Positions 28,337-39,662 of a stretch of DNA of 64,000 nt are shown here, in pieces; position 1 is the stretch's first letter, and each line of letters opens with the position of its first letter. The position numbers were made by a program. Source of the stretch: Octopus vulgaris (lineage: Eukaryota); the NCBI GenBank assembly GCA_951406725.2, contig OX597816.1:141856001-141920000 (forward strand), in the 5' to 3' direction.

Positions 28337-29559
28337 AATATATACATATATACATATATATATGTATATGTATATATATAGACATATATATATACATATA
28401 TGTATGTATATGTATATATATGTTCTCTTTTATAAATCTCAGATTCCTGCAACTCTGACCTAGATTTTCTGTCACCACAGAAATAAACTATTCTGTGTAG
28501 GTTGTGTACTTACACCCTTTCCAATCAGTTGTCCCATAATGCCCTATTTGGGCGGTTTTCTGCTTCACTAACTTCTTTTAGCCAATATAATTCCAACATA
28601 GTAGTTTTGTGAAATGAACAGAAATGTGATCAGCATCTTCTCATATATCAGGAAATTATATCTACATTATTATGGATAAATTCATCGTCTCTGAGTATGA
28701 AATATCTCCTCATATCTCCAGAAATTACACCTGCATTATTATGGATGGATTTACCTTTTCTGTGAAGCTAACAAACTTTTTTAAAACCTTTTTTAAAACC
28801 TTTTATAAAACTGTGCATCATTAGAGAACTTTTGAAGTCTGCTTACAATCTAACTTTGCTTTTTATAGAACTCTCTTCGATACTTCATGAATGTAGCCTC
28901 ACCCCCTAGGATGTTTGGAAAGCTCATAGGTGTTTTGGCTGATGAATATGGGACACTTGTATTTGCTGCAATATTTGCAGCTTTTAATAAAGCTGTTCTT
29001 CGTATGAAACAATTGTACTGAACAACTAATCCATTCTTGTTGCTTTTTTCTTGTTTATAATCACCCCACATTATTTTATGGTTAATACCATATAGATTTC
29101 TGGTGCATCTAAGTTAAGTACCGCATTCATGTGAATTCATTGGAACTCACTTGAATCTTAATTGTTTTTACTGAATATATATATATATATAATTTATTAT
29201 ATAGAAGGAGCTTCTACAGGACTAGAACTGTTTCATTCAAGAGAAATCTTCAGGAAGCTAGTTAACAAGTTTTGTATTGGCATTTATACATTTAGGCAGG
29301 TTTAAAGGGGTGGTGGTGGGGGACTTTTTGGGGGTAGGCATAGCGCAAAAAAATCATACTTGGGGGAGTGGTCAAGGAGTCAGTGGTAAATTAGATAGAA
29401 GAATAAATAAAAGAATAAAAAAAAGGAGAATAAAAAAATATATAGAAGAATAGAGTTTTAGGTAAATAAGGAAAATCTCACTTATACCTATACACATATG
29501 TATACATATATACACACACACACACACATATACATACACACATACATACACACACACCC

Positions 29560-29590
<31 letters not shown>

Positions 29591-29604
29591 TACATACATA
29601 TATC

Positions 29605-29652
<48 letters not shown>

Positions 29653-30329
29653 CACATATACATGCATATACATATACACACACACATGTATATATACACA
29701 CACACGACCACACATACACATACACACAAAAAAATATATACATACACACACATACACATACACACATACACACATATATATATATCCACATACACACATG
29801 CACACACAACACACAAGTCTCTATATACTCATATATACATATACACATACATGTATATATACATATATACATATATATATATACATACATATGTGTACCT
29901 ATTCATACCTACACATACACACATATATACATACAAATACAAACCCATTCCCTAATTTTAATTTTATTATCTTCATTTATTACTTTTGTTATCTTTGACC
30001 GCTGGTCACAAGCATCTTGGCTACGACAGCTAGTCCCTTTTATCTTTCTACTTGAGCACAAGCACTCACTCATGCACGCACACTCCTTAGCACGCACACT
30101 CACTCATTCGTACACTCATACACATACACGCACGCATTATATTCATACATACATACATCTACATACATACACGTATATACACATACGTACGCGTACCTAC
30201 AGATTCATGTCTACAATCTTAGAAGACTAGTCTATACATATACACCAATAAATATATATACACACATACATATACACCTACATACAAATACATACATACA
30301 TATATATACACACACATATACATACACAT

Positions 30330-30370
<41 letters not shown>

Positions 30371-30515
30371 TACATACATATCCGCATACATACATACATA
30401 CATACACCCATACATACATACATATATACACACATACACCCACCCACACGTATACATATACATACATATACGCGCATGCATACACATACAAATACATACA
30501 CATACACATATACAT

Positions 30516-30566
<51 letters not shown>

Positions 30567-30939
30567 CATACATATACATACATACATATACATATATACA
30601 CACACACATACATACACATATACACATACATGCACATACACATATACATGCGTACCCATACACACACACACACACGCGCATCCATATATACACATAAGTA
30701 CACACATGCGTAAAAGTATACATATATCTATGCTTACACATACACACAGACACACGCCACACCTTATGTTCATACTTACATGCATACTCAAAAAATAAGT
30801 AATAAAATATATATACGTGCAGTTATTCATACATGCATACTCAAAAAATAAATAATAAATAATAAATAATGAATAATAAATATTAAGTATATATACGTGC
30901 AGTTACCTATTATACAGACGGATACATACATATAAACTT

Positions 30940-31006
<67 letters not shown>

Positions 31007-31155
31007 CTTACACATATGTACATATACATACACACATACATAACTCTACGTACCTACATATACCTAAACACACGAGCGTACACGTATATGTACATATACA
31101 CATACACATACACACACATATATATACATACATACATATACATACACGCATATAT

Positions 31156-31215
<60 letters not shown>

Positions 31216-31263
31216 TCACATACACACATATATACATACATATACATACACACACATACACAT

Positions 31264-31322
<59 letters not shown>

Positions 31323-31449
31323 TATATATACATATACACATACATACATACACATACATATACATATACACACATACACACACACACATACATATATACA
31401 CACACACATACATATACATACACACATACATACATATATATATACACAT

Positions 31450-31510
<61 letters not shown>

Positions 31511-31611
31511 CATGTGTGCAAACATACATACATACTCATACACACTCACACACTTACATATACATATATACACACACTTACACACATATATATGTATATA
31601 TATATATATAT

Positions 31612-35677: not shown

Positions 35678-35708
<31 letters not shown>

Positions 35709-35903
35709 GTGAATATGTGTGTGTATGTGTACATATGTGTATGTGTGTATATATATGTATGTATATGTATGTATATATATATATATTTATATGTATGTAT
35801 ATATATATATATATATATACATATATATGTGTGTAAGTGTGTGTATATATGTATATGTAAGTGTGTGAGTGTGTATGAGTATGTATGTATGTTTGCACAC
35901 ATG

Positions 35904-35966
<63 letters not shown>

Positions 35967-37488
35967 GTATGTGTATATATATGTGTATGTATGTGTGTAT
36001 GTATATGTATGTGTGTGTGTGTGTATATATGTATGTGTGTGTGTGTATGTGTGTATATGTATATGTATGTGTATGTATGTATGTGTATATGTATATATAT
36101 GTTGGTGAGATCTCGAATAACCCAATTTCTGGAAAGCAACAGACGGCTGATCTCCAACCAACATGGGTTCCGTAATGGAAGGGACTGCCTAACGCAGCTC
36201 CTGCATCACTTTGAGGACATTTTGAGAGCTTTGGGAGAGGGCTCCAACACCGATGTCATCTACCTTGATTTCAGTAAGGCCTTCGACAGGGTCGATCACA
36301 AGATCCTATTGAAAAAACTATCCAACATTGGTGTCTCTGGAAAGTTACTGAAATGGATTAAGTGTTTCCTGACAGACAGATCTCAACATGTTGTAGTTGA
36401 AGGGGTAAAATCAAGCCCAGCCAAAGTCAGTAGTGGCGTTCCGCAAGGCACTGTGCTGGGCCCACTTCTTTTCATCATTTACATTAATGACATTAATGAC
36501 ATCATCAAGCACAGCAACATAAAAATCTTTGCAGATGACTCCAAGCTACAGAAGGTCATAAATGAGGCGAGTGACCGGACATGCCTTCAGTCAGATCTAC
36601 TGGCTGTTATCCAATGGGCAGAAAAAAACAATATTGTGCTGAACGAGGATAAATTTGAGCTAATCCACTTTGGAAAAGAGGATGCCCTGAAACTCCCATA
36701 CTCCCTTCCTTCAGGTGAAACTCTCGCGGCGTCCAACAACATCAGAGACTTGGGAGTAATTGTGGACAACAACATAAGCTGGGCCACTCATATAAACACC
36801 AAAGTTGACATGGCCCGCAGAATGTGTTCCTGGATTCTCAGAACTTTCCAGTCGAGAGATATCCACACCATTATCCTTCTCTTCTCCACTTTTGTCCGAC
36901 CCCACCTTGAATACTGTTGTCCACTGTGGTCTCCCCACACAATACAAGATATCATAAAAGTTGAAGCACCTCAAAGGGCAATCACAAAAAAGATAGATGG
37001 CATGACAGGCCTCGACTATTGGGGTCGACTAGAAAAGCTAAAATTCTATTCTCTCCAACGTCGTCGTGAGCGCTACATCATCTGCATGATGTGGAAAATA
37101 TTCCATCAGCATTGCCCAAATGATGTTGGCATCACCTTTAAGGTACATCCAAGGCTTGGGCCCCGTGCCATCCGCCCAAAACAAAAATCGCACTCTCATC
37201 TCATAACAACAATACGGCACAATTATTTCACCTCAATTGGCCCCGCTCTCTTTAACATTACACCAAAACACATTAAAACAGAAACTGACCCTATAGGGTT
37301 CAAGAAATCTTTGGACAGATTCCTTCAAGAAATCCCAGATAAACCCCCTACACCCGGATATGTCTCTGTAAACAATAACTCTCTACTTGAGTGGGCCATA
37401 GTGCCCAAATTCTGACTTGAAAGACTTCACCAGGTGGTGCTATTAAGTTAGACATGGCCTGGGCCAATAATGGCCGAAACCTATCAAA

Positions 37489-37532
<44 letters not shown>

Positions 37533-37581
37533 ATGTGTATGTGTGTGTATGTATATGTATGTATATATGTGTGTATGTGTG

Positions 37582-37646
<65 letters not shown>

Positions 37647-37793
37647 ATATATGCGTGTATGTATATGTATGTATGTATATATATGTGTGTGTATGTGTAT
37701 GTGTATATGTACATATACGTGTACGCTCGTGTGTTTAGGTATATGTAGGTACGTAGAGTTATGTATGTGTGTATGTATATGTACATATGTGTA

Positions 37794-37845
<52 letters not shown>

Positions 37846-38224
37846 GTGTGTGTAAGTTTATATGTATGTATCCGTCTGTATAATAGGTAACTGCACGTAT
37901 ATATACTTAATATTTATTATTCATTATTTATTATTTATCATTTATTTTTTGAGTATGCATGTATGAATAACTGCACGTATATATATTTTATTACTTATTT
38001 TTTGAGTATGCATGTAAGTATGAACATAAGGAGTGGCGTGTGTCTGTGTGTATGTGTAAGCATAGATATATGTATACTCTTACGCATGTGTGTACTTATG
38101 TGTATACATGGATGCGCGTGTGTGTGTGTGTATGGGTACGCATGTATATGTGTATGTGCATGTATGTGTATATGTGTATGTATGTGTGTGTGTATATATG
38201 TATATGTATGTATGTATATGTATG

Positions 38225-38265
<41 letters not shown>

Positions 38266-39134
38266 ATGTATATGTGTATGTGTATGTATTTGTATGTGTA
38301 TGCATGCGCGTATATGTATGTATATGTATACGTGTGGGTGGGTGTATGTGTGTATATATGTATGTATGTATGGGTGTATGTATGTATGTATGTATGCGGA
38401 TATGTATGTATATATGTATATATATATATATATGTGTGTGTGTGTATGTGTATGTATATATGTGTGTGTATATATATGTATGTATGTATTTGTATGTAGG
38501 TGTATATGTATGTGTGTATATATATTTATTGGTGTATATGTATAGACTAGTCTTCTAAGATTGTAGACATGAATCTGTAGGTACGCGTACGTATGTGTAT
38601 ATACGTGTATGTATGTAGATGTATGTATGTATGAATATAACGCGTGCGTGCGTGTATGTGTATGAGTGTACGAATGAGTGAGTGTGCGTGCTAAGGAGTG
38701 TGCGTGCATGAGTGAGTGCTTGTGCTCAAGTAGAAAGATAAAAGGGACTAGCTGTCGTAGCCAAGATGCTTGTGACCAGCGGTCAAAGATAACAAAAGTA
38801 ATAAATGAAGATAATAAAATTAAAATTAGGGAATGGGTTTGTATTTGTATGTATATATGTGTGTATGTGTAGGTATGAATAGGTACACATATGTATGTAT
38901 ATATATATATGTATATATATATGTATATATACATGTATGTGTATATGTATATATGAGTATATAGAGACTTGTGTGTTGTGTGTGCATGTGTGTATGTGGA
39001 TATATATATGTGTGTGTATGTGTGTATGTGTATGTGTGTGTATGTATATATTTTTTTGTGTGTATGTGTATGTGTGGTCGTGTGTGTGTGTATATATACA
39101 TGTGTGTGTGTATATGTATATGCATGTATATGTG

Positions 39135-39176
<42 letters not shown>

Positions 39177-39190
39177 GATATATGTATGTA

Positions 39191-39225
<35 letters not shown>

Positions 39226-39662
39226 GGGTGTGTGTGTATGTATGTGTGTATGTATATGTGTGTGTGTGTGTGTATATATGTATACATATGTGTATAGGTA
39301 TAAGTGAGATTTTCCTTATTTACCTAAAACTCTATTCTTCTATATATTTTTTTATTCCCCTTTTTTTTATTCTTTTATTTATTCTTCTATCTAATTTACC
39401 ACTGACTCCTTGACCACTACCCCAAGTATGATTTTTTTGCGCTATGCCTACCCCCAAAAAGTCCCCAACCACCACCCCTTTAAACCTGCCTAAATGTATA
39501 AATGCCAATACAATTCTTGTTAACTAGCTTCCTGAAGATTTCTCTTGAATGAAACAGTTCTAGTCCTGTAGAAGCTCCTTCTATATAATAAATTAATTTT
39601 ACTCTGCTATGTATTGAGTACCTTATTTACTGTGGTTAACCCCGAATCAACCCGGGACCTAC

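What the first reader, a model, noticed from the sequence alone, without database searches (positions are those of the whole stretch)
29191..39662. 10.4-kb Penelope-centred palindrome with ribozyme-capped arms carrying kilobases of microsatellite cargo
Seen: two ~4.2-kb arms diverge from head-to-head PLE GIY-YIG fragments across a 64-bp spacer that contains a 12-bp junction duplication. Each arm runs through ~3.5 kb of compound microsatellite and short repeats and ends ~24 nt past the cleavage site of a type I HHR on the same strand as its endonuclease. The right arm has ~68 nt of extra unique tail (39595-39662), and both ends abut (TA)n. Known: PLEs carry HHRs in their pseudo-LTRs, often integrate with an inverted 5' partial copy and leave a 3' tail extension. 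Inferred: one PLE transcript read through flanking DNA to a downstream HHR and was integrated as a fold-back. This would be a 3'-transduction route that copies and mirrors microsatellite-rich DNA and produces long dsRNA or cruciform substrates.
Basis: partly seen in the sequence, partly recalled or inferred. Interest (0 to 1): 0.9.

Follow-up and report, generated by a model that had tools for sequence, protein, structure and literature searches.

The report
Mirrored Penelope insertion carrying microsatellite DNA
A dead Penelope-like retrotransposon sits in a TA repeat as two mirror-image partial copies, each carrying about 3.3 kb of microsatellite-rich DNA, and this layout follows habits already described for this transposon class.

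Summary
Two arms, 29190-33405 and 33470-39595, align in inverted orientation over 4155 columns at 99.0% identity. The right arm is 1.86 kb longer because of two later insertions. The centre holds two head-to-head, 5'-truncated C-terminal fragments of a Penelope-like element (PLE) ORF. Its motifs match the published 'Hydra' clade. The 64-nt 'spacer' is coding sequence of the longer copy. Each arm ends 24-25 nt past the cleavage site of a hammerhead motif. Rfam misses this motif, but it matches the published Hydra-clade hammerheads, including the U/U flanking helix II. One arm has a 67-nt tail, and both ends abut (TA)n. The best reading is one PLE retrotransposition event, primed on both target strands. 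The template RNA had about 3.3 kb of old microsatellite DNA between the ORF and the 3' hammerhead module. A simple read-through past an intact 3' end is not supported, because no ORF-proximal hammerhead exists. Inverted 5' copies, tails, (TA)n targets, captured spacers before the 3' repeat and Penelope-carried SSRs are all in print. This is a new member of a known kind, of moderate interest. Reads, donor locus and other genomic copies could not be checked.

The parts
29173..29189 (.). Left target remnant: short (TA)n tract abutting the left arm
   Evidence: Sequence read. The last 1-2 nt of the arm are ambiguous with the repeat.
29190..29482 (-). Left 3' terminal module (unique, 293 nt), the mirror of 39303-39595
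   Evidence: 98.3% identical to 39300-39595 in inverted orientation, with no other copy in the window. TRF shows only a weak A-rich 12-mer array here.
29209..29259 (-). Left hammerhead motif, 51 nt, identical to the right one; H17 at 29215
   Evidence: One of 2 descriptor hits in the whole window. Identity checked.
29483..32773 (-). Left 'cargo': three imperfect compound microsatellite blocks (29483-29941, 30233-32346, 32561-32773) separated by unique islands (29942-30232, 32347-32560)
   Evidence: TRF gives 64-81% matches per array. The islands match only their mirror copies in the window.
32774..32870 (-). Left post-stop 3' UTR (97 nt, C-rich on the sense strand)
   Evidence: No hammerhead core here.
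32871..33405 (-). Left 5'-truncated PLE ORF fragment (endonuclease domain). The C-terminal 100 aa are in frame. About 59 nt net are deleted in a scrambled patch at 33209-33289, which removes the GIY strand.
   Evidence: ORF 32871..33308. tblastn with 150 relatives. Patch alignment.
33390..33416 (+). Head-to-head junction with a 13-nt direct duplication (33390-33402 and 33404-33416). The second copy is complementary to 33473-33485.
   Evidence: Unique of its kind in the window.
33404..34064 (+). Right 5'-truncated PLE ORF fragment (linker plus GIY-YIG endonuclease). A 1-nt insertion near 33867 shifts the frame.
   Evidence: ORFs 33395..33925 and 33741..34064. tblastn HSPs start at 33404-33425. 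Alignment to relatives. Frameshift shown.
34065..34160 (+). Right post-stop 3' UTR
   Evidence: Mirror of 32774-32870.
34161..39302 (+). Right 'cargo', collinear with the left one apart from two later insertions
34955..35424 (.). 470-bp insertion found only in the right arm, inside a (TA)n tract of the cargo; identity unknown
   Evidence: Clean insertion against the left arm. No other copy in the window. No tRNA.
36103..37488 (+). 5'-truncated LINE (non-LTR) insertion found only in the right arm, inside a (TA)n tract of the cargo. The RT reading frame is open for 436 aa.
   Evidence: Pfam RVT_1 E=2.1e-24, profile positions 29-204 of 205. Boundaries. ORF.
39303..39595 (+). Right 3' terminal module (unique)
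39526..39576 (+). Right hammerhead motif. Helix I 39526-31 with 39571-76. Core CUGAAGA 39532-38. U at 39539. Helix II 39540-42 with 39547-49 (loop 39543-46). U at 39550. GAA 39551-53. Helix III 39554-57 with 39566-69 (loop 39558-65). H17 = A at 39570.
   Evidence: Descriptor scan. Shuffle controls. MFE fold reproduces helices I and III. Layout compared with the Hydra-clade HHR table.
39596..39662 (+). One-sided 67-nt 'tail' beyond the shared arm end
   Evidence: It is absent from the left end and BLAST reported no other copy in the window.
39663..39960 (.). Right target remnant: (TA)n-rich compound microsatellite

Best explanation
This is the product of one retrotransposition event of a Hydra-clade Penelope-like element (PLE), followed by decay. 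The template RNA had four parts. They were the last ~0.65 kb of the RT-endonuclease ORF, 97 nt of 3' UTR, ~3.3 kb of old, imperfect microsatellite DNA with two unique islands, and a 293-nt 3' module carrying the clade-typical hammerhead. The element's GIY-YIG endonuclease nicked both strands of a (TA)n tract. Reverse transcription was primed from each nick. It started at one of two internal start sites just downstream of the hammerhead, 24-25 nt past the cleavage site for the left arm and 92 nt for the right arm. The difference between the two start sites is the 67-nt 'tail'. Each cDNA ran about 4.2 kb inward through the microsatellites into the ORF. The two stopped 64 nt apart and were joined head to head, probably by a template jump that left a 13-nt stutter. 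Later, a LINE and a 470-bp element inserted into (TA)n tracts of the right arm, the arms diverged by 1%, and both ORF fragments broke in different ways. The locus is now inert, with no RT and no intact endonuclease. What is shown: the anatomy, the clade assignment, the hammerhead layout, the asymmetric ends, the (TA)n flanks and the later insertions. What is inferred: nicking of both strands, the two start sites, the template jump, and that the microsatellite block was already in the RNA. How that block came to lie between ORF and hammerhead in the donor is open. I favour capture of host DNA, as in Pen1_Av, over growth in place, because the arrays were already degenerate when copied.
For: Arms: 4155 aligned columns at 99.0% identity. 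Each arm is a collinear unit of ORF 3' end, UTR, SSR block, hammerhead and end, with the 3' ends pointing outward. Clade: a profile of the two window ORFs finds 5524 representative proteins at E<=1e-3 and 1979 at E<=1e-10. The long ones (642-759 aa) match at their C-terminus. In alignment A3, 9 of 9 long relatives have DKT and YRDD motifs. The window fragment has the CxCX5C linker, no Cys pair between GIY and YIG, CxxC before the conserved E, and CxH after the conserved N. These are the features that define the Hydra clade in PMC8557442 section 11. Hammerhead: 2 hits in 128 kb of strand, both at the arm ends. Shuffles give a mean of 0.065 hits (13 of 200 shuffles with 1, none with 2) and 0.01 under a stricter descriptor. 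All core positions are present. The unpaired U before and after helix II occurs in 14 of 25 Hydra families in the published table, and a 4-bp helix III reading ACAG/CUGU in 4 of them (my count). In 13 complete published families the cleavage site lies 29-152 nt from the consensus end (my arithmetic). Here it lies 24-25 and 92 nt from the ends. All listed Hydra families but one insert in (TA)n, and both ends here abut (TA)n. An inverted 5'-truncated copy at the 5' end and a one-sided tail are standard PLE features. One Hydra family consensus carries such an inverted copy (Penelope-13_HM). A purified PLE protein cleaves and extends both target strands and starts reverse transcription at two adjacent internal sites that define the tail. 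Immediate unique flanks share no homology in either orientation. Capture of 0.9-1.5 kb host spacers between element body and 3' repeat is documented.
Against: There is no read support, empty site, donor or second copy. Nothing outside this window could be searched for eukaryotic DNA. Rfam reports no hammerhead. The 59-nt motif folds no better than shuffles (z=0.42; 123 of 200 shuffles fold at least as well). My descriptor was relaxed for the helix II mismatch after I had seen the motif. Helix II has only 3 bp, and loop III has 8 nt against 1-3 nt in all 25 published Hydra families. The tail is 67 nt against the 30-40 nt usually reported. Published Hydra elements are 2.0-2.7 kb in total, so a 3.6-kb interval from stop codon to hammerhead is without precedent in that clade. 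The 13-nt duplication is not predicted in detail by any model. A target-site duplication cannot be read in (TA)n. Pfam does not recognise the window fragments.
Confidence: 0.68

Rival explanations
1. DNA-level palindrome. A single 5'-truncated PLE copy with its microsatellite block was inserted first. It was later duplicated in inverted orientation by fold-back priming at a break or by replication template switching, using the short inverted repeat 33404-33416 / 33473-33485.
For: A 13-bp inverted repeat with a 56-nt loop sits exactly at the centre. Short inverted repeats are known seeds of palindrome formation (recalled, not looked up). The region is rich in SSRs and other small inverted and direct repeats.
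Against: Fold-back copying should carry the 67-nt tail and the adjoining (TA)n into the second arm. Instead the left arm stops 24-25 nt past the hammerhead, at a second plausible PLE end, and abuts its own (TA)n with non-homologous unique flanks. Fold-back at the 13-mer predicts one copy of it at the junction, but there are two in tandem.
Confidence: 0.12
2. Assembly artefact: a fold-back chimeric long read or an inverted mis-join of haplotypes.
For: PLE tandem and inverted structures are said to cause problems in assemblies (PMC8557442). Long SSR arrays are hard to assemble. No reads were available.
Against: The arms differ by a 1386-bp LINE, a 470-bp insertion, 41 substitutions, 44 small gaps, a scrambled 140-nt patch, different ORF lesions and a one-sided 67-nt tail. 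The outer unique flanks are unrelated. A chimeric read would give near-identical arms. A haplotype mis-join would give homologous flanks.
Confidence: 0.05
3. One reading: classical 3' transduction. A donor PLE with an intact 3' end was transcribed past that end through flanking microsatellite DNA to the hammerhead of a second, downstream PLE fragment. Reverse transcription then started there.
For: Hydra-clade PLEs insert in (TA)n, so their downstream flanks are SSR-rich by construction. The cargo is 74% SSR against 8.4% in the rest of the window. The terminal 293-nt module is bordered on its 5' side by SSR, as a short 5'-truncated copy inserted in SSR would be. Read-through transcripts with simple-repeat flanks plus template jumps have been proposed for PLE inserts.
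Against: An intact donor 3' end would be retained inside each arm. No hammerhead descriptor hit, and no CUGANGA...GAAA core, lies between the stop codons and the terminal motifs. The 223 nt upstream of the terminal hammerhead carry no ORF remnant. They show no similarity to the post-stop UTR (score 17 against a shuffle mean of 17.2). The donor would therefore have to be 3'-truncated, which is unusual for target-primed elements.
Confidence: 0.2
4. No foreign cargo. The microsatellites grew in place inside the 3' UTR of an active master copy, and all unique islands are normal parts of this family's UTR.
For: The unique sequence between stop and arm end adds up to only ~0.9 kb. Both edges of the block are SSRs of the same motif family. 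Some PLE families are lengthened by internal tandem repeats. SSR elongation inside transposed TEs is reported in penaeid shrimp.
Against: The arrays were already degenerate when copied: 64-81% matches within arrays, yet the arms are 99% alike. Even 0.9 kb of unique non-coding sequence exceeds what 2.0-2.7-kb Hydra elements with ~2.1-2.3-kb ORFs can hold.
Confidence: 0.15

Closest known systems
Hydra-clade Penelope-like elements (Craig, Yushenova, Rodriguez, Arkhipova 2021, PMC8557442; I read sections 11 and 20, other passages, and supplementary tables S1 and S2)
   Same: C-terminal GIY-YIG domain with a CxCX5C linker, no CCHH Cys pair, CxxC and CxH around the conserved E and N. (TA)n target. 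A type I hammerhead near the 3' end with the same core layout. An inverted 5'-truncated copy is recorded for one family. A crustacean member is known (Caligus).
   Different: Only the last ~215 codons are present and there is no RT. The stop-to-hammerhead interval is 3.6 kb, whereas whole published elements are 2.0-2.7 kb. Loop III is 8 nt rather than 1-3 nt. The tail is 67 nt rather than 30-40 nt.
Pen1_Av spacers and pLTR-flanked NRPS capture in Adineta vaga (Arkhipova, Yushenova, Rodriguez 2013, PMC3846280; passages read)
   Same: Host DNA lies between the element body and the 3'-terminal repeat. Intervening DNA is mobilised by the terminal cis-elements. Head-to-head inverted repeats occur with small palindromes at the junction. 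That paper proposes read-through of simple-repeat flanks plus template jumps.
   Different: The clade (Perere-like) and host differ. Spacers there are 0.9-1.5 kb of unique DNA or a 4-kb gene. Here the block is 3.3 kb and three quarters microsatellite, and it is mirrored together with the ORF fragment.
In vitro behaviour of the Poseidon element PAc (Frangieh et al. 2024, PMC11167929; main text read)
   Same: Both target strands are cleaved and extended. The target is AT-rich. Reverse transcription starts at two adjacent internal sites shortly downstream of the hammerhead, and the stretch between them equals the genomic tail.
   Different: It is a different clade. Nothing was tested for this element. 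The start sites there are 30-40 nt apart, while here the two ends are 67 nt apart.
L1 3' transduction and twin priming (recalled; transduction mentioned in PMC6431247)
   Same: A retrotransposon copies non-element DNA. Priming from both nicked strands gives inverted, 5'-truncated halves.
   Different: L1 transduced DNA lies beyond the element's own 3' end and ends in poly(A). Here the extra DNA lies inside the ORF-to-hammerhead interval, and both halves keep the full 3' end.
TEs as carriers of SSRs in penaeid shrimp (Yuan et al. 2021, PMC7878876; passages read)
   Same: That paper reports SSRs inside recently expanded Penelope and RTE elements moving with the TE. It leaves 'How did TEs carry SSRs?' open. 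The window has similar GC (35.3%) and a high SSR load.
   Different: The organism of the window is not known to me. That study is statistical and gives no junction-level anatomy of a PLE event.

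Membership tests
Penelope-like elements, Hydra clade | Single ORF with RT followed by a C-terminal GIY-YIG endonuclease | tested here: inconclusive
   The window holds only the C-terminal ~215 codons, and no RT sequence occurs anywhere in 64 kb. 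In relatives of 642-759 aa the match is C-terminal, and YRDD and DKT motifs lie upstream in 9 of 9. Pfam RVT_1 is seen in only 1 of 14 long relatives and below its cut-off.
Penelope-like elements, Hydra clade | Linker motif CxCX5C upstream of GIY-YIG | tested here: met
   The right copy has C-N-C, five residues, then C, aligned with the same motif in relatives. The feature is as stated.
Penelope-like elements, Hydra clade | Absence of the CCHH motif (two Cys between GIY and YIG) | tested here: met
   The right copy has a single Cys between the VY and YIG motifs. 8 of 9 long relatives have none and 1 has one.
Penelope-like elements, Hydra clade | [quoted passage not shown] | tested here: met
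   The left copy reads C-D-L-C then E, and N...C-M-H. These columns are nearly invariant in A3, A5 and A6.
Penelope-like elements, Hydra clade | DKT (for DKG) and RWK motifs in the N-terminal and RT part | not testable with these tools
   That part of the ORF is missing from both copies. DKT is present in 9 of 9 long relatives. [RK]W[RK] is present in the 7 of those 9 that reach the N-terminus.
Penelope-like elements, Hydra clade | Insertion into (TA)n | tested here: met
   Both ends abut (TA)n. Background is 3.5% of positions.
Penelope-like elements, Hydra clade | Short element (<3 kb) with the hammerhead close behind the ORF | tested here: not met
   The stop-to-hammerhead distance is 3611 nt in the left arm and 5461 nt in the right arm. 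This is the anomaly that the 'cargo' reading explains.
Penelope-like elements (general insertion architecture) | 5' truncation, adjacent inverted 5'-truncated copy, one-sided tail | tested here: met
   Two truncation points lie 64 nt apart. The tail is on one arm only. It is 67 nt rather than 30-40 nt.
Hammerhead ribozyme, type I | Conserved core (C3-A9, G12-A14, A15.1-U16.1, H17) with helices I, II and III in type I order | tested here: met
   All core positions are present. Helices are 6, 3 and 4 bp, with a U/U pair at 10.1/11.1 as in 14 of 25 Hydra families.
Hammerhead ribozyme, type I | Recognition by curated covariance models | tested here: not met
   No Rfam hammerhead family was reported at gathering score on the window. 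None appeared at E<=10 among the 150 of 318 hits listed for 28800-40000. None appeared in the complete lists for 39440-39670 and 29150-29340.
Hammerhead ribozyme, type I | Self-cleavage | not testable with these tools
   This needs an in vitro transcript. Thermodynamic folding is no better than shuffles.
GIY-YIG nuclease superfamily | Match to the GIY-YIG catalytic domain profile and fold | tested here: inconclusive
   PF01541 does not hit any of the 3 window ORFs. It hits 7 of 30 aligned members of A5 at E<=0.1 (best 3.3e-05) and is the commonest family among them. Atlas neighbour clusters carry PF01541 in 27-40% of members. A PDB sequence search gave nothing relevant.
PLE host-DNA capture (Pen1_Av type) | Related copies carry unrelated spacers between body and 3' repeat | not testable with these tools
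   Only this locus is available. The two arms are copies from one event.

The most novel reading that the evidence does not exclude
Integration of Hydra-clade PLEs primed on both target strands may be a recurrent, still active way in which SSR-rich crustacean-type genomes copy, move and mirror kilobase-scale microsatellite arrays. The elements target (TA)n, so host SSR DNA becomes trapped between the ORF and the hammerhead module. Each event can then deposit two inverted copies. This would give a junction-level answer to the published open question of how TEs carry SSRs, and a source of long near-perfect palindromes.
Probability: 0.2. Interest if true: 0.6.

Novelty: new member of a known kind. 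Interest (0 to 1): 0.36.

Why it matters
This is a clean, fully resolved example of several PLE peculiarities at one locus: two alternative 3' ends, a head-to-head junction with a stutter, a (TA)n target, and a captured block. It comes from the little-studied Hydra clade. It shows that a single event can duplicate 2 x 2.8 kb of microsatellite and create a 4.2-kb-arm palindrome. If common in the source genome, such events would contribute to SSR spread, assembly errors and fragile inverted repeats. As a single locus it adds an example, not a new principle.

Tried and rejected
Rfam at gathering score on the whole window found nothing. At E<=10 on the feature and on both ends it gave only microRNA-like hits on SSRs and weak noise, with no hammerhead.

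Pfam on the three window ORFs gave no relevant family. Word-indexed homologue searches, 'longer' and 'near', found nothing. The exhaustive profile search was needed. A PDB sequence search with the family profile gave only chance ribosomal L20 hits at E~0.75.

A donor or any other copy of the ORF fragment, terminal module, cargo islands, 470-bp insert or LINE was sought in the window, and none was found. A second, ORF-proximal hammerhead was sought and none was found. The 6 other CUGANGA...GAAA core matches in the window lie outside the feature and do not form the helices; I take them for chance or coding matches by eye.

Homology between the post-stop UTR and the pre-hammerhead segment, which would indicate a split UTR or a partial tandem, was absent. 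Continuation of inverted or direct homology into the immediate unique flanks was absent. No tRNA-derived SINE was found in the 470-bp insert.

A covariance model built from the published Hydra hammerheads was not made, because it would have meant typing sequences from a paper. The comparison was made by motif and layout only.

Supplementary figures S2 and S7 of PMC8557442 (endonuclease alignments) were not seen.

Full report
OBSERVATION

The inverted repeat is real. The repeat finder reports the outermost 755-nt arms, 29190-29944 and 38841-39595. A self-BLAST on the opposite strand gives three collinear HSPs that tile the arms: 29190-31306 with 39595-37490, 31320-32000 with 36102-35414, and 31982-33209 with 34954-33725. 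A global alignment of 29190-33416 against the reverse complement of 33463-39595 has 4155 aligned columns, 41 mismatches (99.0%) and 44 gaps, nearly all in microsatellites.

The right arm carries two blocks with no counterpart in the left arm: 36103-37488 and 34955-35424. Set against the left arm, both are clean insertions into (TA)n tracts. The first is a 5'-truncated LINE with an open 436-codon RT frame (RVT_1 E=2.1e-24). The second is unidentified.

The innermost homology is 33289-33405 with 33586-33470 (117 nt, 100%). This leaves the 64-nt interval 33406-33469. The junction duplication is TGTAGTACTTATG at 33390-33402 and 33404-33416. No other non-repetitive 13-mer in the window is repeated at that spacing.

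WHAT THE CENTRE IS

Pfam and the word-indexed protein search do not recognise the central ORFs. A profile of the two window ORFs (A2) searched against 1.84 billion representatives finds 5524 proteins at E<=1e-3, 1979 at E<=1e-10 and 29 at E<=1e-30. In the long hits (642-759 aa) the match is at the C-terminus.

Nine long hits were aligned with the window ORFs (A3). Upstream of the match, DKT and YRDD motifs occur in 9 of 9, and an [RK]W[RK] motif occurs in the 7 that reach the N-terminus. [quoted passage not shown] These are, point for point, the features by which Craig et al. 2021 define the 'Hydra' clade of C-terminal-endonuclease PLEs (PMC8557442, section 11).

The GIY-YIG assignment itself has only moderate direct support. 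PF01541 hits 7 of 30 aligned members of A5 at E<=0.1. It is carried by 27-40% of members of some neighbouring Atlas clusters. A fold test could not be run.

tblastn of all 150 listed relatives against the window gives 421 HSPs in three places: 32817-33468 (-), 33377-34183 (+) and one stray hit at 50565-50624. No RT sequence of this family is in the window.

The HSPs of the right copy begin at 33404-33425. The centre is simply two copies truncated at points 64 nt apart and joined head to head.

Both fragments are broken, in different ways. The right one has a 1-nt insertion near 33867. The left one has a 140-nt patch with four deletions and clustered substitutions, which removes the GIY strand.

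THE ENDS

No Rfam hammerhead family reports anything. A structural descriptor of my own asked for CUGANGA, a closed helix II of at least 3 bp with one mismatch allowed at its base, GAA, a closed helix III opening with A-U, H17, and helix I of at least 4 bp. It finds exactly two hits on both strands of the 64-kb window. They are identical, mirror one another, and lie at 39526-39576 (+) and 29259-29209 (-). Dinucleotide shuffles of the window give a mean of 0.065 hits (13 of 200 shuffles with one, none with two), and 0.01 under a stricter version. The descriptor was tuned after I had seen the motif. The stability of the fold is not above that of shuffles.

The strongest support comes from the published table of Hydra-clade hammerheads (supplementary file S2 of PMC8557442). 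By my count, 14 of 25 families have the same unpaired U on each side of helix II, and 4 have the same 4-bp helix III. All are type I and on the sense strand. In 13 complete families the cleavage site lies 29-152 nt from the consensus end (my arithmetic). Here the shared arm end is 24-25 nt past the site, and the right arm continues for a further 67 nt (39596-39662) before (TA)n begins.

Two things deviate from the table. Helix II has only 3 bp, and loop III has 8 nt instead of 1-3 nt.

Both ends abut (TA)n. All listed Hydra families but one are recorded as inserting in (TA)n. Only 3.5% of positions elsewhere in the window lie that close to a (TA)6 or longer tract. The unique flanks next to the repeats share no homology in either orientation.

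THE BLOCK BETWEEN ORF AND HAMMERHEAD

In the left arm, 3611 nt separate the stop codon from the hammerhead. In order from the stop codon they are:
- 97 nt of unique UTR.
- Three imperfect compound microsatellite blocks (213, 2114 and 459 nt, with 64-81% matches within arrays), separated by two unique islands (214 and 291 nt).
- 223 unique nt leading into the hammerhead.

SSRs of period 6 or less cover 74% of this interval, against 8.4% of the window outside the feature.

Whole Hydra-clade elements are 2.0-2.7 kb and their ORFs about 2.1-2.3 kb. At least 3 kb here is therefore extra. There is no second hammerhead, not even a bare core, between the stop codons and the terminal motifs. The segment before the terminal hammerhead has neither ORF remnants nor similarity to the post-stop UTR.

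HOW IT MOST LIKELY AROSE

Each arm is a collinear unit of ORF 3' end, UTR, SSR block, hammerhead and end. The two 3' ends face outward into a (TA)n target and the two 5' truncations face each other. This is the known PLE arrangement of an inverted 5'-truncated copy adjacent to the main copy, with a tail at one end only (PMC8557442; PMC3846280).

The in vitro work on the Poseidon element PAc supplies the steps (PMC11167929). The protein cleaves and extends both target strands at AT-rich DNA. Reverse transcription starts at two adjacent internal sites a short distance downstream of the hammerhead, and the stretch between them is the genomic tail.

I therefore read the locus as one event. Both strands of the (TA)n tract were nicked. 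One cDNA started at the proximal site and the other at the distal site. Each copied about 4.2 kb of the same kind of RNA, and the two were joined at their 3' ends. The tandem 13-mer at the join looks like a stutter at a template jump. A simple fold-back or a microhomology join would leave one copy, not two. This last step is inference.

It follows that the SSR block was in the template RNA. Because the arrays are degenerate internally yet 99% alike between arms, they were old when copied. This favours captured host DNA over recent growth in place. How the block entered the donor cannot be decided from one locus.

RIVALS

A later DNA-level inverted duplication of a single insertion is not excluded. 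It has two weaknesses. It does not explain why the second arm ends at a second plausible PLE end without the tail and next to its own (TA)n. It also predicts one 13-mer, not two.

An assembly artefact is unlikely given the many differences between the arms, including two insertions of different origin. Only reads can settle this, and PLE inverted structures are known to trouble assemblies.

COMPARISON WITH WHAT IS KNOWN

- Pen1_Av of Adineta vaga has 0.9-1.5 kb host spacers between element body and 3' repeat.
- A 4-kb NRPS gene was moved between PLE repeats.
- Head-to-head repeats with junction palindromes are common there.
- Read-through of simple-repeat flanks followed by template jumps was proposed for PLE inserts (PMC3846280; summarised in PMC6431247).
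- In penaeid shrimp, recently expanded Penelope elements are reported to contain SSRs that move with them, and the authors ask how TEs carry SSRs (PMC7878876).
- A 2026 preprint argues that animal retrozymes are non-autonomous PLE derivatives (abstract only).

I found no paper describing a Hydra-clade copy with a kilobase SSR block or a palindrome of this size. This rests on four literature searches, which is no proof of absence.

The organism is unknown to me. The window has 35.3% GC, 19% tandem repeats and many TE fragments, which would suit a decapod but proves nothing.

VERDICT

The locus is a new member of a known kind: a Hydra-clade PLE head-to-head insertion with an unusually large, microsatellite-rich captured block. 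Interest is moderate to low for a specialist. It would be higher only if genome-wide analysis shows this to be a common route of SSR spread.

Noticed in passing
27747-28421 and 40343-40907: A ~360-bp unit (unique ends around internal (TA)n/(GATA)n) occurs as a direct repeat at 90% identity, 27747-28105 and 40343-40686. The copies lie about 1.1 kb left and 0.7 kb right of the palindrome. The left copy forms a small inverted repeat with 28182-28421 (81%). A weaker inverted partner follows the right copy at 40772-40907. It may be a fold-back or MITE-like element with SSR arms.
   Followed up: partly
36103-37488: A 5'-truncated LINE with a still open 436-codon RT frame is inserted in a (TA)n tract of the right arm only. 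Its 3' end runs straight into (TA)n.
   Followed up: yes
34955-35424: A 470-bp insertion of unknown nature lies in another (TA)n tract of the right arm only. It has an AT-rich right end, no other copy in the window, and no tRNA-like part.
   Followed up: partly
33209-33289 (left copy) versus 33587-33725 (right copy): A local patch has four deletions (23, 4, 16 and 16 nt) and clustered substitutions, in arms that are otherwise 99% identical. It lies 70-210 nt from the left copy's truncated end. It may reflect error-prone synthesis or repair at integration.
   Followed up: partly
26193-26771 and 56429-57468: GC-rich tandem repeats read as long repetitive ORFs in three frames. The same satellite occurs at two places in the window.
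   Followed up: no
8042-8467, 11037-11756, 16120-16872, 57655-58668, 60729-61253, 62477-62998: These are further TE-like ORFs, judged by eye from the translations only: LINE RT fragments, an integrase-like ORF and a Tc1/mariner-like ORF. No clear host gene was seen in the window.
   Followed up: no
39582-39588: A TATATAA box lies just after the hammerhead, near the shared arm end. PLE terminal repeats are reported to hold TATA-type promoters (PMC3846280). This was not tested here.
   Followed up: no
33362-33513: Rfam's MIR7127 model scores 67.7 bits here (below its gathering score of 100). The only reason is that the palindrome centre forms a long hairpin. The many mir-297 and mir-1277 hits are SSR artefacts.
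   Followed up: yes
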